Shown here: in pieces, positions 9,238-61,023 of the stretch
How positions within the stretch are numbered: position 1 is the stretch's first letter
Layout of the letters: each line of letters opens with the position of its first letter
IMG/VR virus record: IMGVR_UViG_3300036790_000223
Source of the DNA: a virus
Lineage: Duplodnaviria > Heunggongvirae > Uroviricota > Caudoviricetes
DNA length: 64,000 bases
Direction: 5' to 3' (one strand)
Made by a program: the position numbers and the translations under genes
Notes under the pieces: generated by a model
What the model was told of the DNA's origin: nothing
Database searches by the model: none
The model's input: the letters and a program-made list of their open reading frames with translations, nothing else

Positions 9238-9325
9238 TGGAGTGGGGGCGTTCCTGACAGCTTGCTTCCGTCAGGCGAGTGGGACTGCCCTCAGGGGCAT
9301 TTCTCCCCTTCTCCGACTCCCCACG

Positions 9326-18019: not shown

Positions 18020-18242
18020 CGGCTGGTGCAAGGCAGCCGGACTGGCGGTGCTGGCGGCTTGCTGCCTCGGCAACGGGGTAGGTGCCCGGCATGGAATGCC
18101 CTGGTACACCCAGATGCTGATCATTGCCGGAGGGCTGCTGTTCCACACCATGGCAGCGGTCATCGGGGCCATGCTCACCGAGCTGGCCCGCATCAGTAAG
18201 GATATGGAATCAATTCCACAGGAAGGGAAAGCACACCAATGA
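17961..18242 (+). CDS. possible small membrane protein
   Basis: MSRLTLAITLATTPAL..hydrophobic segments; overlaps the RecT 3' end. Confidence 0.35.
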   Translation: MSRLTLAITLATTPALNRTDGWCKAAGLAVLAACCLGNGVGARHGMPWYTQMLIIAGGLLFHTMAAVIGAMLTELARISKDMESIPQEGKAHQ

Positions 18243-18970
18243 CCGACGACAACGAGCTGACCTCACCATTCTCCAGCTACTACGACAAAGCATGGCCGTT
18301 CCGCTACCGGGCCACGCTGCACCTGTTCACCATCGCGGGCGGCACCCCGTCCAACCCGGACGTGGCCTCGGCCTGGATTGCCTCCAAGATGGAGGTCAAA
18401 GACGACCGGCTGGCTGAGATGGTGGCCGAGGCTATGGACGCCCGGGGCATCACCCAGCAGCAAGCCGAAGAGGAAGTCGCCAAGCTGCGCCACCTCAACG
18501 GCTTCAAAAAGGACGACAACGGCCTGTACATCGAGGGGCGCCATGTCAAGGCAGCGCTCAAAGAGATGGCCAACGTCGCCGCTGCGAGCGGCAAGCTGCC
18601 GCTGCAAAAGTGGGGCAAGACCCAGAAGTTCATCCGCTCGTTTGTCGCTGAGCACATCATGGTGCCGGAGACGCGGATCTACCTGGGCACCGATGCCCCC
18701 GACCGGGTAGAGCAGTCGTTCCCGGAGAACAAGCGCGCCGGGGTGCGTGGCATCCAGCTCACCGAGATCGTGGAGGACGCTCAGGTGACCTTCGAGGTCA
18801 TCAGTGACTGGGAGTTCACCGAGGAGCAGTGGGCACTGCTGTGGCTGACCGGCGAGATGCAGGGGCTGGGTGCAGCCCGCAGCCAGGAGTATGGCCGCTA
18901 CAAGGTCATCGGCTGGGAGCGGGTGGCGACCACCGGCAAGACAGCGCCGAAGGCCGGAGGGCCGGAGTAG
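18239..18970 (+). CDS. hypothetical protein (243 aa) downstream of recT
   Basis: Complex composition, no motif recognised. Confidence 0.55.
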   Translation: MTDDNELTSPFSSYYDKAWPFRYRATLHLFTIAGGTPSNPDVASAWIASKMEVKDDRLAEMVAEAMDARGITQQQAEEEVAKLRHLNGFKKDDNGLYIEGRHVKAALKEMANVAAASGKLPLQKWGKTQKFIRSFVAEHIMVPETRIYLGTDAPDRVEQSFPENKRAGVRGIQLTEIVEDAQVTFEVISDWEFTEEQWALLWLTGEMQGLGAARSQEYGRYKVIGWERVATTGKTAPKAGGPE

Positions 18971-41741: not shown

Positions 41742-42386
41742 TTGACCCTTCCGGCCTTCGGCATTCAGATGCAACAGCAACCTGACTACCCCCTCACGCT
41801 GGACGGGGACGTGGTGAATGCCGCTCCCGCTTTCCAGGCTCCTGACGGTTACGGAATCTTGTGTTACACCTGGAGCGCCTTCTACGACAACGGATTCTTG
41901 CCTATGTCGCCGGGTGAAGGGCAACTCCAGTTCACTGGAGGCGCTAACCCGCCACAGGACCGGGCAGAAGGCCCCTACCCTTCCAAGCTGACCCTCAACT
42001 TCTGGGGACCCACCCCAGGTGACTTCAGCTACGGTTCACTTCGCGTGTGGCTCTACTTCGTCCCCGCTCAGGCGCTGGAAACGACGCCCTCTGTGGCTAA
42101 CTTCACTGCCGGGGCAACTAACGCCATCACTTTCGACTCCGACTCAGCTACCAACTCAGCGGCAGTCCACACCCTCGCAGACGGAAGCAACCTGACCAGC
42201 GTCACTCCGCTTCCCACGCTCAGCGTGGTCGAGACGCTGGCGTCGGGCGTCACCTTCACGGACAACGAAGACGGTACTGCCACGTTGGCCGGAGACATGC
42301 CAGCGGCGGGGAACTACTCGCTTACCATCCAGTCAATCAACAGCGTGGGCGAGGTGGATCAGGCGCTCACGCTCACCATTACCTGA
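41742..42386 (+). CDS. probable minor tail protein
   Basis: TTG after AAAAGGAG RBS; 214 aa. Confidence 0.5.
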   Translation: MTLPAFGIQMQQQPDYPLTLDGDVVNAAPAFQAPDGYGILCYTWSAFYDNGFLPMSPGEGQLQFTGGANPPQDRAEGPYPSKLTLNFWGPTPGDFSYGSLRVWLYFVPAQALETTPSVANFTAGATNAITFDSDSATNSAAVHTLADGSNLTSVTPLPTLSVVETLASGVTFTDNEDGTATLAGDMPAAGNYSLTIQSINSVGEVDQALTLTIT

Positions 42387-42433
42387 CTGACTCCCCTCTT
42401 CCGGGAGGTCCCCGGTTACAGGAGGCAGGTTAC

Positions 42434-49157: not shown

Positions 49158-50198
49158 TCAGACCGTGGCGACCTCCTGCGCCAGCTTGAACGCACGAGCC
49201 TTCTGGGCCTCAGGCGTGAGCAGGGTGCGGTTGAGGTAGGTCTCCTCGCTGCGGTAGGCCCGCACGTGGTCCAGGTACTCACCCGCGCACTGCACCAGCC
49301 CGTAGGCGGTGCCCTTCACGTGAGCGCCCGTGGGCGAGGCGAACAGCGCCTTCAGCTTGCCGCGAGCCTCGCTGACGTTGTTCATCACGCGCTCGCTGGC
49401 CATGCCAACTGGCGGCTCGGGCAGGAACTGGTCGATGAACAACTGCCGCTGCTTCGCGGTCACCTTGATCTTCATCAGTGTCTCCATCAGCTCCAGGTAG
49501 TGCGCGAACTCCTGGCGCGTCGCGGTCACCGCAGCCTTCGCGTCTTCGACCCGGTCACGCCAGTCGCCCTTGTGGACGAACCGGTAGGTCGCTCCGGTGC
49601 GGTCGCCTTCCAGCTCCGCAGCGCGGAAGGTGTTGGCGCAGACGATCCGCACGGCGGTGGCGCGAGCGGCGCACGCCGCGTAGCCATCGTGACGGTTGGT
49701 CAGGCCCAGGTAGGGCATCGTGTAGGTGCCCTTGTCACCGGGGATGGTAACCGGCTCATCGAGGCGGGCCAGTGCCCAGACCGCCCGGCCGCCTTCGAGG
49801 CTTCCGGCGGTCTCGTAACGGACACCCTTCTCCTGGTCCAGGATGGCCTCCATGATCTCGCCCATCTCGGTGTTGGTGATCAGCGAGTAGGTCCCCTGGT
49901 CCTTGTGGTACAGGGTGGTGTTGTTGTCGCTGCGGACGATGCGCCCCCAGTTGTCGTCGGGCTCGAACTGGCCCTCGATCACATGGCCGTCGCTGTCGCG
50001 CACCTTGCGGTAGCTGGCCTCGTACTCCGGGTCCCAGTCCAGGCCAGCGAGAACGCGGGCCTCTTCCCATCCACCTTCGGGATAGTCGTCCAGGACCTTG
50101 CCTTCGCGGTGCCAGGGCACCTCGCGGACGCTGAACATGTCGTCAACGTTGGCTGGCATGGGTGATGTGCCTTCCTTTCCTGTTCCTATTGGGCTCAT
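49158..50198 (-). CDS. DUF932 phage/plasmid-related protein
   Basis: Length and conserved blocks (TNRHDGYAA..., GLVQCAGEYLDH) typical of the DUF932/TIGR03299 family. Confidence 0.65.
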   Translation of the reverse strand: MSPIGTGKEGTSPMPANVDDMFSVREVPWHREGKVLDDYPEGGWEEARVLAGLDWDPEYEASYRKVRDSDGHVIEGQFEPDDNWGRIVRSDNNTTLYHKDQGTYSLITNTEMGEIMEAILDQEKGVRYETAGSLEGGRAVWALARLDEPVTIPGDKGTYTMPYLGLTNRHDGYAACAARATAVRIVCANTFRAAELEGDRTGATYRFVHKGDWRDRVEDAKAAVTATRQEFAHYLELMETLMKIKVTAKQRQLFIDQFLPEPPVGMASERVMNNVSEARGKLKALFASPTGAHVKGTAYGLVQCAGEYLDHVRAYRSEETYLNRTLLTPEAQKARAFKLAQEVATV

Positions 50199-50433
50199 CA
50201 GTGCGGGATCTGCCCGCAGACCCGGTTGCCCGGGTTTCGCCCTTTACTTCCCCATTGCCCACGGGCATGGGGGGCGGTGTGCCTCACCGGCTGGCTGGCA
50301 GATGCACCCGGTGAGCCGGGGCCGCAGGTCAAACCTGCGGTCCAGCTCTGCGTGCAGCTGGGCTTCCATCGTGAGCCACTGGGGGACGCTGATGTTCACT
50401 GGTTTCCTTTCCGTTTCCCGTCCTGTAGTAGTG

Positions 50434-50464
50434 TAAACGGGTTTACCCTGTGCTTTATTTCCCC
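50434..50464. repeat. 31-bp direct repeat copy A (GTAAACGGGTTTACCCTGTGCTTTATTTCCC); contains palindrome GTAAAC-GG-GTTTAC
   Basis: Identical to 51793-51823; intergenic. Confidence 0.8.
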
Positions 50465-50465
50465 C

Positions 50466-50825
50466 TCAGGTACCCAGAACCCGGCAGTTCGGGTGACCGC
50501 AGCGCTTGAGGCAGCTGCAGATCCTGAACTGGCCGCCACCTGAGCAGCGGGGGCAGTCCTGACGGGGCACCCGGGGGGTCTCCTCACGCCGGTTCCGGTG
50601 CACCATCAGGTCCTCCTCCACAGCGACGGTCACCTTCACGTGGCGGCCATCCCCGGTGGTCATGCGGAACACCGACTCGCCTGGTTCCACGGTGGGGGCT
50701 ACTCCGCCTTCCACCATGAACTCAGCCGCATCAAAGCCGTCCCTTTCGTAGGCCCACCCGTCCAGCGCGAGCACCATGCGCTCGGCTATCTCCCGGGCGT
50801 CGTCGTCCGTGTCGTGCATGTTCAT
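50466..50825 (-). CDS. hypothetical protein with C-terminal Cys cluster
   Basis: MNMHDTDDDAREIAER...CPRCSGGGQFRICSCLKRCGHPNC. Confidence 0.45.
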   Translation of the reverse strand: MNMHDTDDDAREIAERMVLALDGWAYERDGFDAAEFMVEGGVAPTVEPGESVFRMTTGDGRHVKVTVAVEEDLMVHRNRREETPRVPRQDCPRCSGGGQFRICSCLKRCGHPNCRVLGT

Positions 50826-51028
50826 GACTCCTCGTGTTCGATGCGATCTAGCGAGTTGGTGGCCCCGCTCTTGGCAACGAGCCGCTTGTGCTTGCGAATG
50901 ATCCGCTGAGCCCCCCAGCGCGTCCGTGCTATGCCGAGACCCTCTCCCCAGGGGGAGGGCCGCCCGTAGCTGACTGAGCGGTACCGGTCCAGCGGGTGAT
51001 AGGTCACCTGGTAGTAGGTGGGGTTCAC
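50822..51028 (-). CDS. hypothetical small protein
   Basis: 68-aa ORF, overlap-coupled. Confidence 0.4.
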   Translation of the reverse strand: MNPTYYQVTYHPLDRYRSVSYGRPSPWGEGLGIARTRWGAQRIIRKHKRLVAKSGATNSLDRIEHEES

Positions 51029-51372
51029 GGTGCCATCTCCTCTTCCAGCGCGCCCTGTGCACCATTCACCAGGGCGTGCAGCGCGGCCTCGCGGTAGACA
51101 TCCTGCAGGTGCTGCGGGACTCCAGTCCGTGCGCGGTGGTCAATCTGGCGCTTGAAGGTATCCAGCGCCATAGCTACTGCACCGTCCAGGGATTCGAGCG
51201 CCTGGGCGTCCAGCTGCTGGGGCTCTGCAGCGTCCTCGTTGTAGCCCTCCGCAAAGGCGGCAGCTAGCGGCCACTGGTCTGGCCCGTAGGTCTTCACGGT
51301 GCCGTAACCGGGGACGATGACGTGCTGCTGGCCGGTCACGGTGTTGCGGTAGACGTAGGCTCTCTTACTCAT
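51025..51372 (-). CDS. hypothetical protein
   Basis: 115-aa ORF. Confidence 0.45.
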   Translation of the reverse strand: MSKRAYVYRNTVTGQQHVIVPGYGTVKTYGPDQWPLAAAFAEGYNEDAAEPQQLDAQALESLDGAVAMALDTFKRQIDHRARTGVPQHLQDVYREAALHALVNGAQGALEEEMAP

Positions 51373-51385
51373 GCTTTTCCCTTCC

Positions 51386-51754
51386 TTAGAAATACTCGGC
51401 GTAGCGCTTGCTGCTGATGAAGGTGGTCTTGGAGCGGGTACCGGCGCGCTGCTCGTAGCGCTCCAGCTCGCGCTCCAGTTCCTGCTCGTAGGTCAGCGCA
51501 CCAATCTTCCGGGGGTGCTCCCCGGCGTCGGTGTCGCATTCCTTCCAGGTCTTGTCCCAGATCGGGGCGGTCAGGCCACCCCGGGCCTCGGCATCGGCCC
51601 AGTAGTCAAGGATTCGCTGCTGCGTCTCCTCGTCTGCCGGGAGGTACTCGATGATCCAGGTGCCGGGCTCGCCCTTGACCTTCTCGATCAGCTTGTACTG
51701 ACCGCCGTAGATGTCCGACTGAAAGTCGCTACGGTAGACGTCGCCTGCCTTCAA
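51386..51754 (-). CDS. hypothetical protein (TTG start)
   Basis: 122-aa ORF. Confidence 0.5.
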   Translation of the reverse strand: MKAGDVYRSDFQSDIYGGQYKLIEKVKGEPGTWIIEYLPADEETQQRILDYWADAEARGGLTAPIWDKTWKECDTDAGEHPRKIGALTYEQELERELERYEQRAGTRSKTTFISSKRYAEYF

Positions 51755-51792
51755 CTTCCTGTTCCTTTCCTAGTCCTTACCCTTGCACTATC

Positions 51793-51823
51793 GTAAACGG
51801 GTTTACCCTGTGCTTTATTTCCC
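51793..51823. repeat. 31-bp direct repeat copy B
   Basis: Identical to 50434-50464; in the divergent region between the 51754 (-) and 51838 (+) gene starts. Confidence 0.8.
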
Positions 51824-51837
51824 TGGGGGGAATCAAG

Positions 51838-52512
51838 TTGGAAACCGAGATGGTCGGTCTTGACCAGCTGACGTTGCACCCGGAGAACCCACGTCGCTCC
51901 AGTGTGTTTGAGCTGGAGAGCGGGATCACCCGGTGGGGTCAGTACCGGCCGGTGGTGGTGCAGCGCTCCACCGGCTACATCGCAGTCGGCAACCACATGG
52001 TCCAGGCCATGCGCAACCTGGGCTGGGCTAAGGCTGCCGTGCACTGGATGGACCTGAGCGACGACGACACCCGGCGGCTGCTGCTGTGGGACAACAAGAG
52101 CACCGACAGCTCTGCCTACGACGAGGAAGCCCTGGCGGAGCTGCTGGCTTCCATCGACGACCTCGAAGGCACCGGCTACACCCCTGACGACGTGGACGAC
52201 TTCCTCGCTGCTGGTGGTGGGCTGCCGATCCTGGACCCAGAGGACACCGGAGCGGCCTACGGGGAGAGCGCCGAGCAGACCCAGGCCCGGCGGGATTACT
52301 TTGCTGATGCTGCGCCCCGGGGCAGCGGTGGCGTGCGGGAGGCCATTCTGGTCCTGTCCCAGGAGGGCTTTGATGAGTACCAGCGTGGCATCAACGCGCT
52401 GCGCGCTGGCCGGGAGATGACCGGTGGTGAGGTGGGACTGCTGGCGGTGCAGGTGGCCCTGCGGGCACAGGCCCGCTGCAACGGCAGTGATGGGTGCGCC
52501 TGGTGCGGGTAG
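51838..52512 (+). CDS. ParB-like nuclease-domain protein (third in window), first gene of modification cluster
   Basis: LTLHPENPRR...STGYIAVGNHMVQAMRNLGW (ParB/Srx-like GxxR box); TTG start. Confidence 0.6.
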   Translation: METEMVGLDQLTLHPENPRRSSVFELESGITRWGQYRPVVVQRSTGYIAVGNHMVQAMRNLGWAKAAVHWMDLSDDDTRRLLLWDNKSTDSSAYDEEALAELLASIDDLEGTGYTPDDVDDFLAAGGGLPILDPEDTGAAYGESAEQTQARRDYFADAAPRGSGGVREAILVLSQEGFDEYQRGINALRAGREMTGGEVGLLAVQVALRAQARCNGSDGCAWCG

Positions 52513-52523
52513 GCTTACCTGGC

Positions 52524-52661
52524 ATGGCGGAAAAGGTAAAGGAAACGTGCACCCGGTGCGAGGGGATGGGCATTCTCCAGAAGCCCGGTAGCAAGAAGAT
52601 TGTCCCGTGCCCTAAGTGCAGTGGCATGGGTTACCGGTGGGTTCCCCGTCGTGGGTTGTGA
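52524..52661 (+). CDS. DnaJ-type CxxCxGxG zinc-finger minigene (paralog 3)
   Basis: MAEKVKETCTRCEGMGILQKPGSKKIVPCPKCSGMGYRWV; below ORF-track cutoff. Confidence 0.45.
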   Translation: MAEKVKETCTRCEGMGILQKPGSKKIVPCPKCSGMGYRWVPRRGL

Positions 52662-53721
52662 CTGGCGTCTGCCGGATAACCGGCGTGAGGCATTCCAGCG
52701 GGCATACTCATTCATGCTCCGGTACAGAAATGCGCCTGGCTGTGTCTACTTCGCCTTGCCTTACCTGGCGCACGAGCTGGACTGGGACACCGAGGAGCGG
52801 TACTGGGCAGCCTGGCTGAACGCCAACACCCAGAACCCAGTCACCACGATGCTGCTGATGGAGGCCGGAAGCGTTCCCGGCTACCACGAGCGCGTGGCCC
52901 GCTACCAGGAGCGCAACTGGAAAACCCTGCAGTGGGACTCCGACAGAAAGTGGCAGAAGAGCAGCGAGGTGTTTGGCCGGGCACTGCGCGGATACGCCGA
53001 ACTCATGGAGCAGGCAGGCAGCCAGAGCGCCTACTGGGCCGGTGTGGCTGACTGGGACGATGCCTGGCGCAGGATGACCGCCTTGCCCTACATGGGACGG
53101 CTGAGTGCCTGGAGCGGGCTGGAGTACATGCGGCTGCTCGGTGATCAGCCCATCCCCGACGCGGAGACCTTGCTGCTGGGTGACGCATCCGGGTCCCGCA
53201 GCCACCGTAACGGGCTGGCCCTGGTGACGGGGCACGACGACCTGCTGCAGGACCGGCAGCTGAACCCCGGTGGCTACACCACCAAGTGGGAGCCAGACTT
53301 CCTCACCGAGATGGAGACCGAGGGTTACTGGCTGCTAGCGCAGGCCCGGGAGCGCAATCCTGGCGAGCCAGACGTCGGGTACCTGACCCTGGAGTCGTGC
53401 TTGTGCAACTGGAAGAGCTGGCACAAGCGCAACCGCCGCTACCCGAACGTGTACGCCGACATGCTGCATGAGCGCATCCGCTGGGCTGAGGCACGGCATG
53501 GACTGCGGTTCGGTGTGCTGTGGGACGCCCGCAAGGCCGCCTTGCCGGATTACCTGCGGCTGGAAGACACCACCGGTGACCCGGGGCTGTGTGGCGTGAA
53601 GCAGAACCACTACAACGAGACCGGCGAGGTCATCTTGCTGGGGCACGAACCGGAATGGAAAGACATGTGGTCGGCGTTCGATACCGGCGTTGCCGACCGG
53701 AGATACGGGGTGTGCAGGTGA
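52651..53721 (+). CDS. large conserved-looking protein of unknown function; candidate base-modifying transferase (aGPT-pyrophosphorylase-like role is inference)
   Basis: ~357 aa, Trp/Tyr-rich, no P-loop or common cofactor motif recognised; sits between ParB-like gene and PLP enzyme; start may be TTG 52600 or ATG 52714. Confidence 0.5.
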   Translation: MGCDWRLPDNRREAFQRAYSFMLRYRNAPGCVYFALPYLAHELDWDTEERYWAAWLNANTQNPVTTMLLMEAGSVPGYHERVARYQERNWKTLQWDSDRKWQKSSEVFGRALRGYAELMEQAGSQSAYWAGVADWDDAWRRMTALPYMGRLSAWSGLEYMRLLGDQPIPDAETLLLGDASGSRSHRNGLALVTGHDDLLQDRQLNPGGYTTKWEPDFLTEMETEGYWLLAQARERNPGEPDVGYLTLESCLCNWKSWHKRNRRYPNVYADMLHERIRWAEARHGLRFGVLWDARKAALPDYLRLEDTTGDPGLCGVKQNHYNETGEVILLGHEPEWKDMWSAFDTGVADRRYGVCR

Positions 53722-53822
53722 AGCTGAGGGATGCGGAGTTCCGCCAGAGCCTGGCGATGGGTGCGGTCGTGGTGGCTGCGCTGGCCTTGCTGATTGTGTT
53801 GCTGGCTAAGGGGATCAAGTGA
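53712..53822 (+). CDS. possible 36-aa transmembrane peptide
   Basis: VQVKLRDAEFRQSLAMGAVVVAALALLIVLLAKGIK; GTGA-coupled to next gene. Confidence 0.25.
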   Translation: MQVKLRDAEFRQSLAMGAVVVAALALLIVLLAKGIK

Positions 53823-54280
53823 CTGACGAACGCTTCTACGCTGACCCGGTGGCTAACCGGCTAGCCCTGCACAAACGGTTCAACCCGGCAGAGCTGCGTG
53901 GCGGACATGGGCAGTGGATTGCTGGTTTGGGGTCCCTGGGTGACAAGCTGAACGACGCCGGGTACAACATGGCAGCCGGTGCCGTGGGCAGGGCAGCGCA
54001 GCATGCCAGCGCCGGGGACATGGAAGCAGCGCACCGGTCGCTGGATCACGCCCGTGATGCCGTGCGCGGCAAGCACCAGGAGATGGCCCGCAGTGCCCCC
54101 AGGGCTGGTGAGGTGCGCCCGGATGCTTACGCCCGTGATGATGCGCTGCGCTCCATCGAACAAGCACGCAGCAGCCAGCCTGACCCGGCCACCAGCCGCA
54201 CCACCTTCGGCAGTAACTTCCGTTACGGTGCCGCGATCTCACCCCAGAGCGATGTGGAGCCGAGGCGCAACACCGGATGA
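53819..54280 (+). CDS. hypothetical protein (Ala/Arg-rich, 153 aa)
   Basis: Overlap-coupled within cluster. Confidence 0.5.
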   Translation: MTDERFYADPVANRLALHKRFNPAELRGGHGQWIAGLGSLGDKLNDAGYNMAAGAVGRAAQHASAGDMEAAHRSLDHARDAVRGKHQEMARSAPRAGEVRPDAYARDDALRSIEQARSSQPDPATSRTTFGSNFRYGAAISPQSDVEPRRNTG

Positions 54281-55125
54281 GCCTGACCCCGGTTGAGCGC
54301 CACGATGGCCTCTGGCTCAAGCTGGAGGAGCGTCACCGGCTGCCCAGCGGGGTCAACGGCTCCAAGCTGCGTGCCTGTCAGTACCTGATCGGGGCAGCGA
54401 AGGCCGCCGGTAAGACCCGGGTGATCTCAGCTGCGTCGGTGCTGAGCCCGCAGAACGCCATGGCCGCGAACGTAGCAGCGGACCTGGGCATGGAGTGCAC
54501 CGTCATCCTCGGTGGCACTAAGCCATCCACTGCCGGGCGCCACCGCGCGGTGCAGATCGCCAGCGACTACGGTGCTGACTTCCGGTATATCCCGGTTGGC
54601 TACAACCCGGCCCTCCAGCGCGCCGCCCGCGCCGAAGCCACCGATCCGGCCGCTTACCACCTGCAGTACGGCATCACCACCCCGCCCGATGCCAGCGCAG
54701 TGGAGTTGCGCGCGTTCCATAACGTAGGCGCAGACCAGGTGGCCAACCTGCCTGCTGAGGTGAAGACCCTGGTGATCCCGTTCGGATCCGGCAACACTGC
54801 CGCTGGAGTACTCCTGGGGCTCAGCCAGCAGCCCCCTGAGGCCCTGGAGCGGGTCATCCTCATGGGTATCGGGCCAGACCGTCAAGAATGGCTCTGGAGC
54901 CGTCTGGCCGTCCTGGACGCTAAGGTTCCGGTGCCGGTGACCCACATCGCCTTGCACCCGGACTTTGCCACCTACGGGGACAAGATGAAGGCGTCCATCG
55001 GCCCCATCACGATGCACCCGACCTACGAGGGCAAGATCGTCCGGTGGGCAGATGAGAACCGTCCCCCCTGGTGGACCAGGAGGGACGGTTCAACGGCGAT
55101 GTGGATCGTTGGCGGGCCGATCTAG
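54277..55125 (+). CDS. PLP-dependent enzyme of the ACC-deaminase/D-cysteine-desulfhydrase (Trp-synthase-beta fold) family
   Basis: NGSKLRA matches the PLP-lysine N-K-x-R-K box; Gly-rich FGSGNTAAG loop; 282 aa. Confidence 0.65.
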   Translation: MSLTPVERHDGLWLKLEERHRLPSGVNGSKLRACQYLIGAAKAAGKTRVISAASVLSPQNAMAANVAADLGMECTVILGGTKPSTAGRHRAVQIASDYGADFRYIPVGYNPALQRAARAEATDPAAYHLQYGITTPPDASAVELRAFHNVGADQVANLPAEVKTLVIPFGSGNTAAGVLLGLSQQPPEALERVILMGIGPDRQEWLWSRLAVLDAKVPVPVTHIALHPDFATYGDKMKASIGPITMHPTYEGKIVRWADENRPPWWTRRDGSTAMWIVGGPI

Positions 55126-55643
55126 GCGGCGACCTCCCACCGCAGCTGGTAAGCGGAGGTGACCAGCAGGTGCGCCTCAGCAGCGGCGCCGCACTCAATG
55201 CGGCATTCGCCGCACTCAATGCGGCATTCGCCGCAGTCGATGACCGCATGTAGCCATGCAATTAGGCCACTGCCGGGCCAGAACCATTCCTGGCCAATGC
55301 GGTAGGGCGCGAACATCTTCTGCAGGCGCCGCTCCTGCAACTCCTCGCCGGGGACAGAGAGGATCATCTTCACCCTCAGCTCACCCCCACGCCGCCGCGT
55401 GTTGGCCGAGGTGCCGATCTTCAGATGTGCGCCCCCATCCCAGGCCACGTAAACTCGTTGACCGCTGGCTGCAGTGCGGGTGCGAACGATGGGCGCGACG
55501 CGGGGGACTAGCCTCCGCGCTTCTGTTGTAGTACCATTGTGCACAGAAGTAGTCACCGTTTCTGGTCCTCTTTCCGTTACGGTTTTTACAGATGAAGCTT
55601 GGGCAGCCACCCAAGCTTCATCGCTTTTCCCTGAGAATACCAC
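55122..55643 (-). CDS. T5orf172/GIY-YIG-like domain protein (homing-endonuclease-like), antisense insertion in cluster
   Basis: VYVAWDGGAHLKIGTSANTRRRGGEL ... RIGQEWF core; C-terminal ECGECRI repeats. Confidence 0.65.
   Translation of the reverse strand: MVFSGKSDEAWVAAQASSVKTVTERGPETVTTSVHNGTTTEARRLVPRVAPIVRTRTAASGQRVYVAWDGGAHLKIGTSANTRRRGGELRVKMILSVPGEELQERRLQKMFAPYRIGQEWFWPGSGLIAWLHAVIDCGECRIECGECRIECGAAAEAHLLVTSAYQLRWEVAA
55189..55242. repeat. 21-bp tandem repeat x2.6 (CCGCACTCAATGCGGCATTCG)
   Basis: Two perfect copies plus diverged partial; in-frame within T5orf172 gene. Confidence 0.8.
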
Positions 55644-55864
55644 CAGACGCGCCCACGATCAAGCCTGCGTGCGATGGGTACCGCCCACCCCCGTCAGGCC
55701 CTCGCGGGCCGTCACGGGCCAGCTCAGCGCCAGGTGTAGCACGCTGTAGCTTGCCCAAGCGCTAAGCAAACGGCAGCGTGGCGCAGGTTGGCGCAAATTG
55801 ATGCAGGCTGAGCTGTCGGCGCCGATGGAAAGGGCGTTAAGCCCGGCGTTTAGGCTAGGCGGTC

Positions 55865-56452
55865 ATGGACCTCATCTACATCACCGGAGCCCCGGCCACT
55901 GGCAAGTCAACCCTGATGGCGCAGATTACTAAGGGATGCGAGCGCCAGCCCCGCAGCGGTCCGCCTGCTCACGATGTACTGACCACCCACGGCGGGATCG
56001 TTGGCGCTGAGCTAGGGGTCCGACGTGAGCGTTACAGCGGGACCGACGCCCTGCCACTGAACATCCAGCCTCGCGCGCTCACCTGGCTAGCTCAGATGCC
56101 CTACCGCGTCGTGCTGGGTGAAGGCCAGCGCCTGGGCAACTACGGCTTTCTGTCCGAAGCCATGAACACTGGCTACCGCGTCACCTTGATCCACCTGGTT
56201 GCTGATGAGGTCACGCTCGATGCCCGCCGGGCGGAGCGGGGCAGTGCTCAAGATCCCCGCTGGATGAAAGGCGCGAGCACCCAAGCAGCCAACCTGGCCC
56301 GCCAGTGCAGCGGGGACGGCCGGATCACGGTGGTGGAGCTGGACGCGGCACTGCCGCTGGAGACACTGCTGGAGCAGCTGAACGTCTACCTGCCTGTGCT
56401 GGCGAAACTGGGGGATCATGAAACTTACGGCAGCAGCTCCGGTGCGGCATAA
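55865..56452 (+). CDS. small P-loop kinase (candidate DNA 5-hmU/nucleotide kinase)
   Basis: ITGAPATGKSTL Walker A; 195 aa, size of nucleoside/nucleotide kinases. Confidence 0.65.
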   Translation: MDLIYITGAPATGKSTLMAQITKGCERQPRSGPPAHDVLTTHGGIVGAELGVRRERYSGTDALPLNIQPRALTWLAQMPYRVVLGEGQRLGNYGFLSEAMNTGYRVTLIHLVADEVTLDARRAERGSAQDPRWMKGASTQAANLARQCSGDGRITVVELDAALPLETLLEQLNVYLPVLAKLGDHETYGSSSGAA

Positions 56453-56609
56453 GTGCTGGATTTGCGATGGCACCGGCAGCCGTCAAGCCTATGTCGAAGG
56501 CAACAACAAGTTCCGGATCATCCAGTGTGCGGCCTGCGTCGGGAAGGGGTGGCGCGTCTACCATGACTGGTGCGATGTGGGAATACCGCATCCGGGCAGC
56601 ACGAGCTGA
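56418..56609 (+). CDS. DnaJ-type CxxCxGxG zinc-finger minigene (paralog 4)
   Basis: CWICDGTGS ... CAACVGKGW. Confidence 0.45.
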   Translation: MKLTAAAPVRHKCWICDGTGSRQAYVEGNNKFRIIQCAACVGKGWRVYHDWCDVGIPHPGSTS

Positions 56610-57690
56610 AGCTCAGTTCCGCAACCCGGCCTGCAAGGATGAAGATCACGTAGCGTGCGGCTGCATGTGGGGCAAGAACGTCCCGCAGACCTTCCGTGGT
56701 ATCACCATCGGCCCGCAGGCCGTCAAGCTGCTGAAGCCCAGCGGCAAGCCGCTGGCGATCTACCTGCCTGGCTACATGGCACGGCACACCAGTGACGAAG
56801 CCACCTACGCCATCCTCGACGCGATGGGGCGTACCGGTAAGACCGGCAACCGGGGAGCAGCCGGAGCCACCCCGCAGCTACCCCGAGGCAAGCAGCTGCG
56901 CAGCTACGCGGTACCTATCCACTCCAACATCATGGGTGCGTTCGAGCCGAGCGGGCTGTACAAGACCTGCCGCCTGACCGTCTACACCGCAGCCCACATG
57001 GAAGACTGGAAGGCCCTGGAGCCTGCCCTGCAGGACGTCGCAGCCGCCCTGCAGGAGCACGTGCCGGATCGTTACGCTAAGCAGGCCGAGCAGGCTGCCC
57101 GTACGCTACCGGAGTGGGTGATCCCCGGTACCCCGTTCACCACCGTGACGGTGAACCACTCCTACCCCACCGGAGTCCACACCGACAAAGGTGACCTTGA
57201 TGCTGGGTTCAGCGCTATCTTCGCCGCCCGGCGTGGTCACTACACCGGAGGCGAGCTGTGCTTCCCGCAATACGGGGTGGCGGTAGACCTGCAAGACGGT
57301 GACCTGATCCTGATGGACGCCCACGACTACCACGGCAACACCGCCATGACCTGCGCGTGTGGTAACGACATCCGCAAGCCGTGCAAAGTCTGCGGAGCTG
57401 GCCGGGTCTCGGTGGTCACGTACTTCCGCACTAAGATGCCTGAATGTGGCAGTGCCGAGGCTGAAGTAGCTAAGGCCGCTGCCCGGGCAGAGCGCCGGAT
57501 GCTCACCGATGCACAGCTGCTCGCAGAGCTGAACGGAGCCCCGCTCACGGTGAACGCTATTCAGCGCACCCTGAAGCTAGGTGACCTGCGTGCCGCGCGG
57601 GTGCTGCAGCTGGCAGCGGAGACCGGCCGTGAGGTAGCACCTGAAGAACTAGCCAAGGCCCACGCCATCTGGGCTAAGAACGCGGGGTAG
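56563..57690 (+). CDS. 2OG-Fe(II) dioxygenase (candidate TET/JBP-like thymine hydroxylase) with Zn-ribbon and C-terminal winged-helix-like tail
   Basis: HTD (HxD) ... DAHDYHGN distal His ... RVSVVTYFR; CACGN..CKVCG; start could be a few codons later. Confidence 0.6.
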   Translation: MTGAMWEYRIRAARAEAQFRNPACKDEDHVACGCMWGKNVPQTFRGITIGPQAVKLLKPSGKPLAIYLPGYMARHTSDEATYAILDAMGRTGKTGNRGAAGATPQLPRGKQLRSYAVPIHSNIMGAFEPSGLYKTCRLTVYTAAHMEDWKALEPALQDVAAALQEHVPDRYAKQAEQAARTLPEWVIPGTPFTTVTVNHSYPTGVHTDKGDLDAGFSAIFAARRGHYTGGELCFPQYGVAVDLQDGDLILMDAHDYHGNTAMTCACGNDIRKPCKVCGAGRVSVVTYFRTKMPECGSAEAEVAKAAARAERRMLTDAQLLAELNGAPLTVNAIQRTLKLGDLRAARVLQLAAETGREVAPEELAKAHAIWAKNAG

Positions 57691-57694
57691 AGAA

Positions 57695-57841
57695 ATGGCC
57701 CGGACCTCCTACACCAAGCCCCGCACCTGCCCAGCGTGCAAAGGTGCAGGCCGCTACATCAGCTACAAAGACGTCCGTGGTGTCCCGAAGCGGGAGACTA
57801 AGGCGTGCAAACGCTGCAAAGGCACCGGCAAGGTAAGCTAG
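57695..57841 (+). CDS. DnaJ-type CxxCxGxG zinc-finger minigene (paralog 5)
   Basis: CPACKGAGR ... CKRCKGTGK. Confidence 0.45.
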   Translation: MARTSYTKPRTCPACKGAGRYISYKDVRGVPKRETKACKRCKGTGKVS

Positions 57842-58607
57842 GTGATCACCCAGGGTCCTGGCTACGGCTGGTTGCAGCACCGGGTCTGACTACTCCCACT
57901 ATCCCGACTTCCCGTGGTTTCGCGCTCCTTCTCCGCGCGACAATCCTGCGCTCCCCCGACATCCCAGCCCAGCGCCGCACCACGCATTGCTGACTACCCA
58001 GCCCAGCACCGCGCCAGCCGACTATCCATCCAGCTCCCGCCCGGTGCAGCCGACTATCCAGCACCCGCCCGTGCCAGACCCGACAAACCGAGCCACCGCT
58101 GGACCCGTCCGACTCACCTAGTCAGGTCTACTCGTTTGCCGACAAGCCGAGCCAGTTCACTGCTGCCCCACCGCACCGCGACATGCCATGTCGCGCCCAA
58201 GCCTGCCTGACGTGCCTATCCGCTGCCGCTCCTCCTCTGACCTAGCCGGTCCTTTCTGACACACCTGTCCGACTCCGACATGCCGACCCGGCGCGTGTTC
58301 CTGACATGCCGCTTCGTTGCGCACCCGACATGCCTCGCCGTCCCCAGTCTTTTCCGACGACCCTGCCCTGCACACCACCCGGCCCATCCGACATAGCTAA
58401 CCAGTCCCTGCTCCGACATCCCTGTCCGACCTAGCCCATGGCATGCCCTGACTAACCCATCCGGACCAGCCTCCGACTTGCCTGGCCGAGCCAAACCCGA
58501 CATCCCATGCCGCCTCATACCACCGCGACAAGTCCAGCCGTGTCTGTCCGCAGCGAATCCAAATCCGACATTCCGGGCCAGAACCTTCTTGCGCTATCCT
58601 GACCCAC
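57842..58607. repeat. C-rich, G-poor non-coding region with at least 10 same-orientation CCGACAT(G/C)C repeats and a CGACATG-C-CATGTCG palindrome
   Basis: Seen directly; ORF-track ORFs here are all short, overlapping and on the G-rich strand. Confidence 0.7.
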
Positions 58608-58859
58608 ATGACAGCCCGTACCAACGCTGAGTTCGCCATCGCACTGATCAAGGCCCGGCGTGAGCAGAACGTGAAGGCAGGACTGTGTCCACGCTGTGGC
58701 AGCGCGATGGTGGGCGGGGACTACATCCGCTTTGCCTGGCGCTGTGTAGCCTGTGAGCAGGACCGGAAGAAAGCAGAAAACGCCCGGCAGATGTTCGCTC
58801 AGCTCCAGGCCCTCGATGGAACGCACCAGCCAAACGCTGTTCGCAAGCCGGGTGCTTGA
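58608..58859 (+). CDS. small Zn-ribbon protein
   Basis: CPRCGSAMVGG...CVACEQ; 83 aa. Confidence 0.45.
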   Translation: MTARTNAEFAIALIKARREQNVKAGLCPRCGSAMVGGDYIRFAWRCVACEQDRKKAENARQMFAQLQALDGTHQPNAVRKPGA

Positions 58860-58875
58860 CAGCGGGTCACGGCGG

Positions 58876-58936
58876 GTTTAAAACTTGAACTGGCTTCAGT
58901 TAATCCTCTCACCAGGGGAAACTTAAAAAATGTGTC
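58876..58936. promoter_or_regulatory. AT-rich island (GGTTTAAAACTTGAACTGGCTTCAGTTAATCC..AAACTTAAAAAATG) upstream of terS
   Basis: Strong local GC drop with TTGAAC and TTAATC boxes. Confidence 0.35.
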
Positions 58937-58952
58937 CGGGGGGAGGGTTTAG

Positions 58953-59504
58953 GTGGTCAGTCGGAGGAGCGCAGAGACCCGAACCCGGGATGCGTACTGC
59001 TACAAGTTGCGCCAGCAGGGGTTCGGCTATCAGCAGATAGCTGACCAGATTCAGCGGGGCTTCAATGAGGCAGCCGCCCTGACCGGCGGCACTCCCCGCA
59101 CGTATTCGTCCATGGCCGCCTGGAAGGCTGTTCAGCGGCACCAGGCAGAGATGCCAGTCGAAGACCGGCAGATGCAGCGCCAGCTCGGCGCAGACCGACT
59201 CGAAGAGCTGTATCAGGCCGCCAAGCGCATCTACGTGTCCCGGCACTACGTGGTCTCCACGACCGGCCGGGTGGTCACTGGTCCTGACGGCACCACCCCG
59301 CTAGAAGACCACGGACCCAAGCTGGCAGCTGTGCGTGAGATGCGGGCACTCGAAGAGTCCCGTCGTAAGCTGTTTGCGCTGGACGCCAAGCCGTCCCTCA
59401 ACACCTTCAGCGAGGACGACGCCGATACGCTGCTGGCTGCCCTGCAGCAGGCAGATGCCACGGTCCTGGAGATAGCCGATGCCGACGAAGACGCCACCGT
59501 CTGA
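58953..59504 (+). CDS. terS: terminase small subunit (N-terminal HTH)
   Basis: RTRDAYCYKLRQQGFGYQQIADQIQRGF HTH; directly upstream of and overlapping terL. Confidence 0.6.
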   Translation: MVSRRSAETRTRDAYCYKLRQQGFGYQQIADQIQRGFNEAAALTGGTPRTYSSMAAWKAVQRHQAEMPVEDRQMQRQLGADRLEELYQAAKRIYVSRHYVVSTTGRVVTGPDGTTPLEDHGPKLAAVREMRALEESRRKLFALDAKPSLNTFSEDDADTLLAALQQADATVLEIADADEDATV

Positions 59505-61023
59505 GCTGGTTCTCGACCTCTCCCCAGCCAAGCGTGCTGCCCTCACCGCCGCTCTGCAACGGCATAAGGCCCGCCAGGCACAAGCAGCAGCGCAGCGGCT
59601 GGCTAACCGTGAGTGGCTGACCATGGCCCGGCCTAAGCAGCTGCCCCCGCACAACCCACGTCACCACTTGCCAGATGAGAACGGCAACGTCTGCGGCTGT
59701 GATGGCGTGGACACCGACTACGAAGTGTGGATGATGTGCGCCGGGCGCGGCCTGGGCAAGACCATGGCCGGAGCCAGCAACCTGGTTATTGATGCCCTGG
59801 CGGGCTGCACGGTCAACCCAGGTGGACACTGCAGGCAGTGTCCGCACACCTGGGGAGTGATCGGGCCAACCCGTGAGGCTGTCCAGGAGATTTGCTTCCA
59901 GGGCGTCAGCGGCATCCTGGCTGCGCTGGAGCCCGAGGAGATTGCCAGCTACAACAAGTCCCTGCTGATGGTGACACTGACCAACGGCAACCAGATCCGG
60001 GGCTTCTCGGCTCAGATTGGCGACCGCCAGCGTGGGCTGAACCTGTCTGGTGTGTGGGTGGACGAGCTGGCGAACTTCCAGTACGAGGACGTCTGGCACC
60101 AGATGCGGTTTGCGCTGCGGATTGGCAAGAACCCGCGCATCTACGTGACCACCACCCCGTACTCCACCCGCTTGATGCGCCAGCTGTTCAAGGATGCGGC
60201 TGAGACCGGCAAGGTGCACATCACCACCGGGCACACCTTCGAGAACAAGGCCAACCTGGGTGCCTCGGCCCTGGAGGCGCTGGAGAAGCGCTACGGCGGC
60301 ACCCGGATGGGACGCCAGGAGCTGGCCGGGGAGCTGCTGGAGGACGTTGAGGGTGCGCTGTGGTGGCGTGCGCTGTTTGACGATCACCGGGTCAAAGCAC
60401 CACCCCGGACCCTGAAGCGCTGCGTGGTGGCGGTGGACCCCGCCATGACCAGCGGCGAGAACAGCGACGAGACCGGGATCATCGTGGCTGGCGTCGGTGA
60501 CGACGACGAAGCGTACGTGCTGGCTGACTTGTCCGGCCGGTTCAGCCCTGGTGAGGGCATGGAGCGCGTGGTCAGGGCGTTCAACGACTTTGAGGCTGAC
60601 TGCATCGTCGCTGAGCAGAACAACGGTGGCGACTTTGTCCGGGACTTGGTGCATACTGTCGACCCGAACGTGCCCTACCGCCAGGTCTACGCCAGCCGGG
60701 GTAAGGCCACCCGTGCTCAGCCTGTCTCAGCGCTGTATGAACAGGGCCGCGTTCACCACGTCGGTACCTTCGCTGAGCTGGAAGACCAGTGCTGCATGTG
60801 GATGCAGGACGACCTCAACTCACCTGACCGGATGGACGCCCTGGTCTGGGCCATCATCTGGCTGCGGGACCTGTATGCCGGGTCGATCACGGGCGCCTAC
60901 GGCTACGGGCACTGCCCGCATTGCGAGTCGTTCATCCGCATGGAGGGCATGAGTTCCTGCGACAAGTGTGGCTCGCCGCTGCGGCTGAGCACCACCAACG
61001 GCAAGAACCCAGCCCTGGTCTAG
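59479..61023 (+). CDS. terL: terminase large subunit
   Basis: ATPase core (MCAGRGLGKT Walker A, VWVDELANF Walker B), RNaseH-like nuclease half (VVAVDPAM...GIIVAG), C-terminal Zn ribbon. Confidence 0.9.
   Translation: MPTKTPPSELVLDLSPAKRAALTAALQRHKARQAQAAAQRLANREWLTMARPKQLPPHNPRHHLPDENGNVCGCDGVDTDYEVWMMCAGRGLGKTMAGASNLVIDALAGCTVNPGGHCRQCPHTWGVIGPTREAVQEICFQGVSGILAALEPEEIASYNKSLLMVTLTNGNQIRGFSAQIGDRQRGLNLSGVWVDELANFQYEDVWHQMRFALRIGKNPRIYVTTTPYSTRLMRQLFKDAAETGKVHITTGHTFENKANLGASALEALEKRYGGTRMGRQELAGELLEDVEGALWWRALFDDHRVKAPPRTLKRCVVAVDPAMTSGENSDETGIIVAGVGDDDEAYVLADLSGRFSPGEGMERVVRAFNDFEADCIVAEQNNGGDFVRDLVHTVDPNVPYRQVYASRGKATRAQPVSALYEQGRVHHVGTFAELEDQCCMWMQDDLNSPDRMDALVWAIIWLRDLYAGSITGAYGYGHCPHCESFIRMEGMSSCDKCGSPLRLSTTNGKNPALV

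What the first reader, a model, noticed from the sequence alone, without database searches (positions are those of the whole stretch)
57842..58607. 766-bp C-rich non-coding CCGACAT repeat array immediately upstream of terS/terL
The plus strand is strongly C-rich and G-poor, a skew atypical of coding DNA here. It carries at least 10 same-orientation copies of CCGACAT(G/C)C, related CCGACT(A/C) copies and one CGACATG-C-CATGTCG palindrome. All predicted ORFs in it are short and lie on the G-rich strand. Its position just before the small-terminase gene makes it a candidate packaging-initiation (pac/cos-flanking TerS-binding) region, or alternatively a replication origin or non-coding RNA locus.
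Basis: seen in the sequence. Interest (0 to 1): 0.7.

Follow-up and report, generated by a model that had tools for sequence, protein, structure and literature searches.

The report
Phage VIPR-like pentamer-repeat guide array
The C-rich repeat block in front of the terminase genes is probably not a DNA-packaging site: the same kind of array sits beside a Cas7-like (Vipr-type) gene in dozens of related actinobacterial phages, and this phage carries that gene 40 kb away, which fits the recently described VIPR RNA-guided system.

Summary
Window 57842-58607 is non-coding and is the only strong C>G skew island in the 64 kb. It carries 26 C[CT]GAC sites on the + strand and 1 on the - strand.

The array is a degenerate 5-nt lattice (NN-S-CC on +, GG-S-NN on -), interrupted every ~30-45 nt by a 3-nt GAC insertion.

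This matches VIPR systems (bioRxiv 10.64898/2026.04.26.720920): a minimal RAMP plus pentanucleotide-repeat guide RNAs.

The closest TerS/TerL relatives lack the array, and most arrays are not shown to lie near a terminase, so the pac/TerS reading is not supported.

Three points differ here: the array is unlinked from vipr, the window has no vap-like gene, and the GG lattice is antisense to the genes. Expression and targets are untested.

The parts
57842..58607 (+). C-rich non-coding repeat array, proposed to be a VIPR-type vrRNA array. It has 26 C[CT]GAC punctuation sites (first 57886, last 58599-58603) on a degenerate pentamer lattice: NN-S-CC on +, GG-S-NN on -.
   Evidence: Skew. Motif statistics. 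No coding signal. 4.9-nt periodicity. Same motif and skew beside Vipr-like genes elsewhere. Pentamer lattice on pooled arrays.
58026..58625 (+). Sub-region with the strongest ~5-nt C periodicity, i.e. the best-preserved part of the lattice.
   Evidence: The top 14 of all 150-nt windows in the 64 kb lie within this span. The second half of the array alone gives power 6.25 at a 4.9-nt period.
58177..58195 (.). Perfect 9+9 palindrome CGCGACATG-C-CATGTCGCG inside the array. It comprises one motif copy and its inverted copy, the only minus-strand site.
   Evidence: I10; single minus-strand C[CT]GAC.
18239..18970 (+). Vipr-like minimal RAMP (Cas7-fold) protein of 243 aa, the proposed protein partner of the array. 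It lies 40 kb away, next to a RecT gene (16832-18019). No array lies next to it.
57695..57841 (+). Context: 48-aa CXXC...CXXC zinc-ribbon ORF ending 1 nt before the array.
   Evidence: Pfam DnaJ_CXXCXGXG, 32.3 bits, just below the 32.7 cut-off.
58608..58859 (+). Context: 83-aa zinc-ribbon ORF. Its ATG lies 5 nt after the last CTGAC of the array, so the array abuts its start codon, much as canonical arrays end at the vipr ribosome-binding site ~15-30 nt upstream of the start codon.
   Evidence: Gene called in all related contigs.
58953..59504 (+). Context: putative small terminase of 183 aa, overlapping the terL start. The assignment rests on position and on conserved placement in relatives, not on a family hit.
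   Evidence: No Pfam or NCBIfam hit. Homologues lie upstream of terL in L007-L010.
59479..61023 (+). Context: large terminase (Terminase_6N/6C).

Best explanation
The block is a VIPR-type repeat array. It is a long run of degenerate pentanucleotide units with two to three conserved positions (CC plus a preceding S on the + strand, equal to GG-S on the - strand) and two variable positions. A conserved 3-nt GAC (GTC) insertion, seen as CCGAC-WW-S-CC, breaks the run every 5-9 units.

By analogy with the published VIPR systems, I propose the following. The array is transcribed and cut into short repeat RNAs (vrRNAs). These are bound by the phage's own minimal RAMP protein, the Vipr-like gene at 18239-18970. 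The variable dinucleotides spell a gapped recognition code for double-stranded DNA of competing phages or prophages, whose transcription the complex represses.

Shown here:
- the lattice;
- its strand specificity;
- its tight, co-oriented linkage to this RAMP gene family in many actinobacterial (pro)phages;
- the RAMP fold of the protein and its remote homology to a validated Vipr.

Inferred, not shown: transcription, the strand transcribed, processing at the GAC punctuation, RNP formation, DNA targeting and anti-phage function.

In this phage the array has become separated from vipr. It now fills the gap between the DNA-modification operon and the zinc-ribbon/terS/terL genes, so the two parts would have to act in trans.
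For: 1. Lattice.
- The pooled weight matrix of 632 C[CT]GAC sites from 29 arrays shows C at 68-86% at positions -10/-9, -5/-4 and 8/9, and 61%/84% at 13/14. Positions 0/1 are fixed by the anchor motif. The positions between are near-random.
- Site-to-site spacings cluster at 8+5k (8, 13, 28, 33, 38, 43, 48). Spacing mod 5 gives chi-square p = 2e-31.
- The window array shows the same ~4.9-nt period, with power 5.99 against a shuffle 99th percentile of 2.33, and nowhere else in the 64 kb does so.

2. Linkage.
- A motif scan of IMG/VR recovered 12 or more viral contigs with 0.7-1.7 kb arrays. Their conserved neighbour is a ~225-250 aa protein family.
- Loci chosen by that protein alone carry an array in 31/46 IMG/VR contigs and 8/13 actinobacterial genomes. 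Every array is on the gene's strand. Nearly all lie directly upstream of the gene, and where read they end at its ribosome-binding site.
- Examples are prophages of Streptomyces sp. NBC_01485 and Nocardiopsis and phage Mae-JY09.

3. Protein.
- It carries the motif EGRxxKAAxKE and a C-terminal glycine-rich loop GxGxxRSQGxGR[FY].
- A profile-profile alignment to the SUSP1 Vipr family gives E 4e-5, probability 70%, over 163 columns.
- 39 of 120 family members score sub-threshold against the SUSP1-type HMM.

4. Published description.
- It also reports NNNGG, YNNNG and NNNNG variants, contiguous 'staggered' arrays, long intergenic regions flanking vipr, and a mostly phage or prophage distribution.
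Against: - In the window the array is 40 kb from the Vipr-like gene, and no vap-like (~180 aa) gene is detectable.
- The window lattice is less regular than canonical ones. Spacing mod 5 gives p = 0.11 with n = 25, and only 3 units are in strict register.
- In SUSP1 the GG lattice is on the same strand as vipr. In all 39 arrays here, and in the window relative to its flanking genes, the GG lattice is on the opposite strand.
- Canonical arrays fill the whole vap-stop to vipr-RBS gap, which argues that the C-rich strand is the one transcribed. So either this clade reads a CC lattice or the guides are made antisense. Neither is described in the preprint text.
- Homology to a validated Vipr is remote (probability 70%).
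- A search with the published 1-nt-skip code, and with 0, 2 and 3 skips, found no excess of matches over shuffled controls in 5 Mb of held phage DNA. There were no self-targets in the window either.
- No expression data exist. I could not check whether this protein family is among the preprint's 667 systems, because no supplement is held.
Confidence: 0.7

Rival explanations
1. Packaging-initiation region. The repeated CCGAC motifs are TerS binding sites flanking a pac or cos cleavage site just upstream of terS/terL.
For: Position. The array ends 345 bp upstream of the TerS-like gene. L010 has a 1.6-kb array directly upstream of its TerS homologue. In L113/L128 an array lies ~1.1 kb from terL. 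In Mae-JY09 the array sits at the end of the deposited linear record. The TerS-like proteins look, from their sequence, to have an N-terminal helix-turn-helix.
Against: The closest relatives (TerL 63-67%, TerS 44-54% identical, same flanking modification genes) have no array. The motif does not change while TerS diverges to 29% identity. Most arrays sit in early or recombination regions beside the RAMP gene, with no terminase shown nearby. Strict strand asymmetry and a 5-nt lattice spanning up to 2.3 kb are not features of known TerS sites. A survey of 80 TerL relatives found no arrays, but only 5 of those loci were high-GC.
Confidence: 0.05
2. Cis-acting transcript element. It would be a long, unstructured, C-rich, G-poor untranslated RNA acting as a Rho loading (rut-like) or RNase E-sensitive gate between the middle (DNA-modification) and late (terS/terL) genes, possibly relieved by an RNA-binding protein. 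This could coexist with the VIPR reading.
For: The C-rich strand is the sense strand of both flanking operons here and of the adjacent genes in all 39 surveyed arrays. The predicted folding energy of the + RNA is about half that of the flanking mRNAs, -31 against -57 kcal/mol per 150 nt. No sigma-70-type promoter lies inside it, and the single weak terminator-like hit is within the shuffle expectation. Mycobacterial RNase E prefers C-rich single-stranded RNA and cleaves 5' of cytidines (PMC10641625).
Against: Plain C-richness does not explain the 5-nt quantised lattice, the conserved GAC punctuation, or the specific linkage to a RAMP gene. rut sites are ~60-90 nt by established knowledge, not 0.4-2.3 kb. 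Nothing tested here shows termination.
Confidence: 0.1
3. Decaying orphan. A former vrRNA array was moved away from its vipr gene by recombination and now persists as non-functional spacer DNA.
For: It is unlinked from vipr and no vap-like gene is present. The lattice register is poorer than in canonical arrays, with strong periodicity mainly in the second half. The array is sporadically absent in close relatives.
Against: 26 punctuation sites keep one orientation. The skew and periodicity remain the strongest in the 64 kb. An intact Vipr-like gene is retained in the same genome. L010 keeps a 1.6-kb array in the equivalent pre-terS position, though there it is also adjacent to vipr. The four near-identical contigs are too similar to measure constraint.
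Confidence: 0.1
4. Replication origin or other DNA-level element. The array would act as iterons, or through the G-rich strand forming two-tetrad G-quadruplexes (GGNNN)n.
For: Many same-orientation repeats are present. Canonical cassettes lie in the replication/recombination modules of prophages, near Rad52, RusA and IstB-like loader genes. On the G-rich strand the motif contains GTC. The (GGNNN)n pattern matches a minimal G4 motif by inspection.
Against: No replication initiator is linked to the array. The window shows no GC-skew switch other than the island itself. The 5-bp lattice with variable dinucleotides is exactly the published vrRNA architecture. Iteron origins are tens to a few hundred bp long.
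Confidence: 0.03

Closest known systems
VIPR systems (Viral Interference Programmable Repeat; bioRxiv 10.64898/2026.04.26.720920, 2026), type II exemplar Escherichia phage SUSP1
   Same: - A stand-alone minimal RAMP protein encoded by a phage, outside any cas operon.
- Intergenic arrays of tandem pentanucleotide units with conserved and variable positions.
- Variant NNNGG lattices and contiguous ('staggered') arrays are described.
- A small accessory gene (vap) is usually adjacent, as is the ~180-aa gene in relatives of this phage.
- The distribution is mainly prophage or phage.
- The SUSP1 locus was re-derived here: vipr at KT454805.2 28474-29061 (-), with YNNGG runs at 29170-29229 and 27802-27949 (-).
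   Different: - Here the GG lattice is antisense to vipr and the neighbouring genes. In SUSP1 it is on the sense strand.
- Units are 5-9 pentamers separated by a 3-nt GAC/GTC insertion. SUSP1 has 9-16 pentamers plus a ~40-nt structured tail, and each vrRNA follows a TTGACA-type promoter-like sequence (my reading).
- Arrays run to 2.3 kb.
- In this window the array is 40 kb from vipr and no vap-like gene is present.
- The protein is 243 aa against 195 aa for SUSP1 Vipr, has a longer helical segment after the first strand, and is only remotely similar (hhalign E 4e-5).
CRISPR arrays with class 1 Cas7 backbones, including type IV-B Csf2 filaments on non-CRISPR RNA (PMC7937560)
   Same: A Cas7-fold RNA-binding protein is paired with a repetitive non-coding locus. 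The array shows periodic conserved and variable positions along its sequence.
   Different: There are no 23-50-bp repeats with unique spacers, and no cas1/cas2, Cas5, Cas6 or Cas11 genes. The period is 5 nt rather than 6 nt. The 'spacers' are compositionally constrained.
Terminase recognition sites (lambda cosB R-elements, SPP1 pacL/pacR boxes, P1 pac hexamers)
   Same: Short repeats lie close to the small-terminase gene in this phage and in L010.
   Different: From established knowledge, known sites span about 100-300 bp with a handful of repeats, are not strand-skewed, and track their TerS. Here the array is absent from the nearest TerS relatives, and elsewhere it lies next to a RAMP gene.
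Rho utilisation (rut) regions
   Same: The sense transcript would be C-rich, G-poor and weakly structured.
   Different: The array is ten-fold longer, with a quantised 5-nt lattice, a conserved punctuation motif and a dedicated linked protein family.

Membership tests
VIPR system | Vipr protein: a stand-alone minimal RAMP (RRM core, thumb, glycine-rich loop) outside a cas operon | tested here: met
VIPR system | Sequence homology to an experimentally validated Vipr (SUSP1) | tested here: inconclusive
   Profile-profile hhalign of A3 against the SUSP1-family alignment A6 gives probability 70%, E 4e-5, 163 collinear columns including helix alpha1 and the G-loop. HMM-against-sequence hits are only sub-threshold, 13-17 bits. 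BLAST finds nothing.
VIPR system | vrRNA locus made of tandem pentanucleotide repeats with conserved GG(Y) and variable NN (or NNNGG, YNNNG, NNNNG variants), at least 4 units | tested here: met
   CC/GG falls every 5 nt in the pooled matrix, and spacings are quantised at 8+5k with p = 2e-31. The window array has a 4.9-nt period with power 5.99 against a 2.33 shuffle 99th percentile, and this is unique in the 64 kb. The window lattice is degenerate, with frequent phase slips.
VIPR system | Array lies in the intergenic DNA flanking vipr | tested here: not met
   In the window the array is 40 kb from vipr, and the gaps flanking vipr have no lattice. The feature is met in relatives: 31/46 IMG/VR loci and 8/13 genome loci have the array adjoining the gene.
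VIPR system | GG-lattice strand is the same strand as vipr, as in the validated SUSP1 locus | tested here: not met
   SUSP1 has its YNNGG runs and vipr/vap all on the minus strand. In this family, all 39 arrays have CC on the vipr strand and GG on the opposite strand. The preprint text does not state orientation as a rule, so this may be a clade difference rather than an exclusion.
VIPR system | Conserved non-repeat element capping each vrRNA (3' tail or handle) | tested here: inconclusive
   A conserved CCGAC-WW-S-CC punctuation recurs every 5-9 pentamers. There is no ~40-nt structured tail per unit. L088/L122/L126 have one conserved ~60-nt block plus a hairpin at one end of the array. The preprint's 'staggered' arrays lack separate tails.
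VIPR system | Adjacent accessory gene (vap) | tested here: not met
   tblastn finds no homologue in the window of the ~180-aa gene that precedes the array in relatives. That gene is present in L010, L056, L057, L103, L113/L128, L131, L133 and Mae-JY09. Its fold and function were not tested.
VIPR system | vrRNAs are expressed and co-purify with Vipr | not testable with these tools
   No transcriptome or biochemistry is available.
VIPR system | Variable dinucleotides match DNA of competing phages under the 1-nt-skip rule | tested here: inconclusive
   84 clean units were searched against 5 Mb of held (pro)phage DNA with skips 0-3. Perfect matches numbered 15, 15, 11 and 11, against shuffled controls of 4-19, so there was no enrichment. 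The database is small and not host-matched.
Terminase pac/cos recognition region | Conserved next to terS in related phages and co-varying with TerS | tested here: not met
   Absent in L007/L008/L009, where TerS is 44-54% identical. Present in L010 (TerS 29% identical) with the same motif. Most arrays lie beside the RAMP gene, with no terminase shown nearby.
Terminase pac/cos recognition region | Virion DNA ends or first headful cut map to the region | not testable with these tools
   This needs raw reads (for example SRR11833918) or virion DNA.
CRISPR array | Near-identical 23-50-bp direct repeats separated by unique spacers of similar length, usually with cas genes | tested here: not met
   Repeat finders report only 7-15-nt degenerate motifs and one 26-bp tandem. 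No cas genes lie near the array.
Known RNA families (Rfam 15) | Match to a curated covariance model | tested here: not met
   No hit at E<=1 in 56500-60000 on either strand.

The most novel reading that the evidence does not exclude
This actinobacterial clade may be a mirror-image VIPR. Its guide RNAs would be the C-rich sense strand, (NN-S-CC)n, transcribed as the intercistronic part of a vap-array-vipr operon. Host RNase E, which cuts 5' of C in C-rich single-stranded RNA, would cleave them at the GA|C punctuation. The Vipr-like RAMP would then read a CC rather than a GG scaffold. In this phage a detached copy placed directly in front of the zinc-ribbon/terS/terL genes would also work in cis, coupling late-gene expression to the early-made RAMP protein.
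Probability: 0.2. Interest if true: 0.8.

Novelty: new member of a known kind. Interest (0 to 1): 0.5.

Why it matters
VIPR was described only in 2026 and validated in E. coli and Pseudomonas phages. This result has four consequences.

- **Annotation.** A feature that looks like a packaging signal is better read as part of an RNA-guided inter-phage conflict system. That would change how this ~117-kb actinophage is annotated.
- **Scale of the family.** It points to a large, unannotated actinobacterial family, with more than 665 proteins matching at E<=1e-5. None has a Pfam, PHROG, NCBIfam or PADLOC match. Its arrays are up to 2.3 kb long and easy to find by C/G skew plus 5-nt periodicity.
- **Open questions about the code.** Which strand is the guide? 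Can a CC scaffold replace GG? Can arrays act in trans when 40 kb from vipr?
- **Testable material.** The isolate genomes that carry the cassette (Streptomyces sp. NBC_01485 and Nocardiopsis strains, including N. tropica JCM 10877) could be used to test these points, if the strains are obtainable.

Tried and rejected
**Similarity searches that found nothing**
- Nucleotide searches of the array and of 24 kb around it against 50,697 phage records gave no match.
- Rfam gave no hit.
- The sigma-70 promoter scan found nothing in the array, and the one weak terminator-like hit was within the shuffle expectation.
- An exact-peptide search for TerL relatives in IMG/VR gave nothing.

**Comparisons that could not inform**
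- Near-identical contigs L001-L005 are 99.7-100% identical throughout, so they say nothing about constraint.
- The TerL-profile survey of IMG/VR returned 80 loci, mostly low-GC aquatic phages, with no arrays. It says little about actinophages, since only 5 loci exceeded 60% GC.

**Family and structure searches for the 243-aa protein and the ~180-aa neighbour**
- Pfam, PHROG, NCBIfam, PADLOC and PDB-sequence searches gave nothing usable.

**Ideas considered and set aside**
- CRISPR-like array: the repeats are too short and too degenerate.
- DnaA boxes, AdpA boxes, parS or sopC-type centromeres, T7-type primase GTC sites and an R-loop origin. These rested on motif resemblance recalled from memory and were not supported by context.
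- TRAP-like or Rho-only explanations do not account for the RAMP linkage.

**Target searches**
- Self-targets in the window showed no excess over shuffles.
- The gapped NN code with 0-3 skipped bases showed no excess over shuffled controls in 5 Mb of held DNA.

**Other**
- Strict register parsing of the window array yields only 3 clean units, so no window-specific guide list could be produced.
- Two literature searches on C-rich repeats in actinophages were unproductive. The VIPR preprint surfaced with Cas7/RAMP/phage terms.

Full report
**Observation**

Window 57842-58607 is strongly C-rich on the + strand. GC skew is -0.32 to -0.38, against a window mean of -0.01 (sd 0.09), and it is the only |skew|>0.25 island in the 64 kb.

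The region is non-coding:
- GC content is flat at ~0.65 at all three codon positions in all six frames. Neighbouring genes show GC2 0.43-0.61 and GC3 0.69-0.88.
- There is no period-3 signal.
- One 1-nt T-run indel at 58135 separates otherwise 99.7-100% identical metagenomic contigs.

The motif is real but was over-counted:
- There are 7 exact CCGACAT and 5 CCGACAT[GC]C copies.
- The underlying unit C[CT]GAC occurs 26 times on + and once on -, against 3-6 expected.
- The palindrome at 58177-58195 is confirmed.
- Short ORFs occur on both strands, not only on the G-rich one.

**Context**

The window comes from a ~117-kb, 65%-GC phage known only from metagenomes. It has no nucleotide match among deposited phages.

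- Upstream of the array lie a PALP enzyme, a P-loop nucleotide kinase 3, a Tet/JBP dioxygenase and a 48-aa zinc ribbon.
- Downstream lie an 83-aa zinc-ribbon ORF whose ATG is 5 nt past the last motif, a TerS-like gene and TerL.

**Testing the packaging idea**

- Relatives with 63-67% identical TerL and the same modification cluster (L007/L008, L009) have no array near terS.
- A more distant relative (L010, TerL 56% over the aligned region, TerS 29%) has a 1.6-kb array with the same motif.

So the array is sporadic with respect to the terminase, and its motif does not co-vary with TerS.

**Finding the true partner**

A motif-pair scan of IMG/VR returned a dozen or more contigs with 0.7-1.7-kb arrays of the same kind.

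Clustering their flanking ORFs revealed one conserved neighbour. It is a ~225-250-aa protein with no Pfam, PHROG, NCBIfam, PADLOC or PDB-sequence match, often preceded by a ~180-aa protein.

The window encodes a homologue at 18239-18970, next to RecT, with no array beside it.

I then selected loci by this protein alone:
- 31 of 46 IMG/VR contigs have an array.
- 8 of 13 genomes have an array. All 13 are Actinomycetota, including Streptomyces, Nocardiopsis, Streptosporangium and Actinomadura.
- Every array is on the gene's strand, and nearly all lie directly upstream of the gene.
- Where I read the sequences, the array fills the gap from the upstream gene's stop codon to the ribosome-binding site.

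The same holds for prophages of Streptomyces sp. NBC_01485 and Nocardiopsis. It also holds, with the array downstream of the gene, for 'Microcystis phage Mae-JY09'.

**What the protein is**

The sequence carries an EGRxxKAAxKE helix motif and a C-terminal glycine-rich loop.

**What the array is**

Pooling 632 motif sites from 29 arrays showed C at 68-86% at positions -10/-9, -5/-4 and 8/9, and 61%/84% at 13/14, relative to CCGAC. Positions 0/1 are fixed by the anchor. The positions in between are near-random.

Spacings are quantised at 8+5k nt, with mod-5 chi-square p = 2e-31.

The array is therefore a lattice of pentamers, NN-S-CC on the sense strand and GG-S-NN on the other. A 3-nt GAC insertion interrupts it every 5-9 units.

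The window array shows the same ~4.9-nt period. Power is 5.99 against a shuffle 99th percentile of 2.33, and all 14 top-scoring windows in the 64 kb lie inside it. Its register is less regular than in canonical arrays.

**Comparison with the literature**

A 2026 preprint (10.64898/2026.04.26.720920) describes VIPR systems:
- a vap accessory gene;
- vrRNAs made of tandem YNNGG pentamers, with NNNGG, YNNNG and NNNNG variants, and with contiguous 'staggered' arrays;
- variable dinucleotides that pair with double-stranded DNA with a 1-nt skip and repress competing phages.

I re-derived the SUSP1 locus. vipr lies at 28474-29061 (-), with YNNGG runs at 29170-29229 and 27802-27949 (-).

I then aligned the SUSP1 Vipr family to the window's family. 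The result was hhalign E 4e-5, probability 70%, over 163 collinear columns including the G-loop. Sub-threshold HMM hits reach 39 of 120 family members.

**Differences and open points**

1. In SUSP1 the GG lattice is on the vipr strand. In this family it is always on the opposite strand. The operon-like layout implies that the C-rich strand is transcribed.
2. In the window the array is 40 kb from vipr, and there is no vap-like gene.
3. A gapped-code target search found no excess of matches in the 5 Mb of DNA I hold.
4. I could not check whether this clade is in the preprint's set, because no supplement is held.

The sense transcript would be unusually unstructured. Actinobacterial RNase E cuts 5' of C in C-rich single-stranded RNA (PMC10641625). 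That gives a lead for processing at GA|C, nothing more.

**Verdict**

The pac/TerS interpretation is not supported. The 'non-coding RNA locus' alternative is closest to what the evidence favours.

The best-supported reading, at confidence ~0.7, is a VIPR-type repeat array whose protein partner is the Vipr-like RAMP at 18239-18970. It is a new member of a very recently described kind, possibly a strand-reversed variant. Transcription, processing, binding and targets are inferred by analogy and remain to be shown.

Noticed in passing
window 403-10046 (- strand): A cluster of 26 tRNA genes, including three tRNA-Met and several isoacceptor pairs, all on the minus strand. It fits a large phage with its own translation supplement.
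   Followed up: no
window 49158-57690 (ADDT ~52756-53721, PALP 54277-55125, kinase 55865-56452, Tet_JBP 56467-57690, DUF932 ~49158-50138 on -): A DNA base-hypermodification gene cluster (PF18724 ADDT, PLP-dependent enzyme, P-loop nucleotide kinase 3, Tet/JBP 2OG-Fe dioxygenase) lies directly upstream of the array. It is conserved in relatives L007-L009, which lack the array.
   Followed up: partly
window 15868-18019: A RecT-family recombinase (16832-18019) and an overlapping upstream ORF (15868-16899, possibly an exonuclease, not tested) immediately precede the Vipr-like gene. In prophages the vap-array-vipr cassette also lies in the recombination/replication module, near Rad52, RusA and IstB-like genes.
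   Followed up: partly
PP395641.1 (L135 5461-5977; record 38460-38976): 'Microcystis phage Mae-JY09' is 73% GC over the two stretches read and carries the actinophage-type vap/vipr-like/array cassette at the end of its record. The stated cyanobacterial host looks doubtful.
   Followed up: no
L104 9197-10896 (- strand): A 1.7-kb, near-perfect tandem repeat in which CCGGACA, GACATGC and ACATGCC each recur ~34 times. It is related to the motif but far more regular than the other arrays. It may be a recent amplification or a different element.
   Followed up: no
L088 4405-4560, L122, L126 (alignment A4): A conserved GC-rich hairpin (GGGGCCCCAGC...GCTGGGGCCCC) plus a ~60-nt conserved block separates the vipr-like gene from a downstream array that leads into a YspA/SLOG-family gene. 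It could be a terminator plus promoter, or a shared vrRNA tail.
   Followed up: partly
window 42131-42896 and 42786-42800: A mild same-strand cluster of 9 YYGACW sites and a 15-nt exact match to array positions 58263-58277. It is probably coding and probably chance (E 0.04).
   Followed up: no
L009 8001-10265; P0006, P0007, P0063 and others: Several TerL relatives carry Hint/intein domains inside the terminase gene.
   Followed up: no
window 57695-57841, 58608-58859; L001 16551-17268: Many very small CXXC...CXXC zinc-ribbon ORFs (DnaJ-central-domain-like or anti-TRAP-like hits) are scattered through this phage, and two of them bracket the array. Their function is unknown.
   Followed up: no
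L043 1779-2418 (-) and 3681-4600 (+); L103 215-1914 and 2175-3474 (-): Some phages carry two arrays. In L043 they diverge from the vipr-like gene on both sides. In L103 they flank the ~180-aa gene in tandem.
   Followed up: partly
P0295, P0300, P0325: SUSP1-type (type II) Vipr homologues at ~40% identity also occur in Gordonia, Rhodococcus and Streptomyces. Actinobacteria therefore appear to host two distant Vipr lineages.
   Followed up: no
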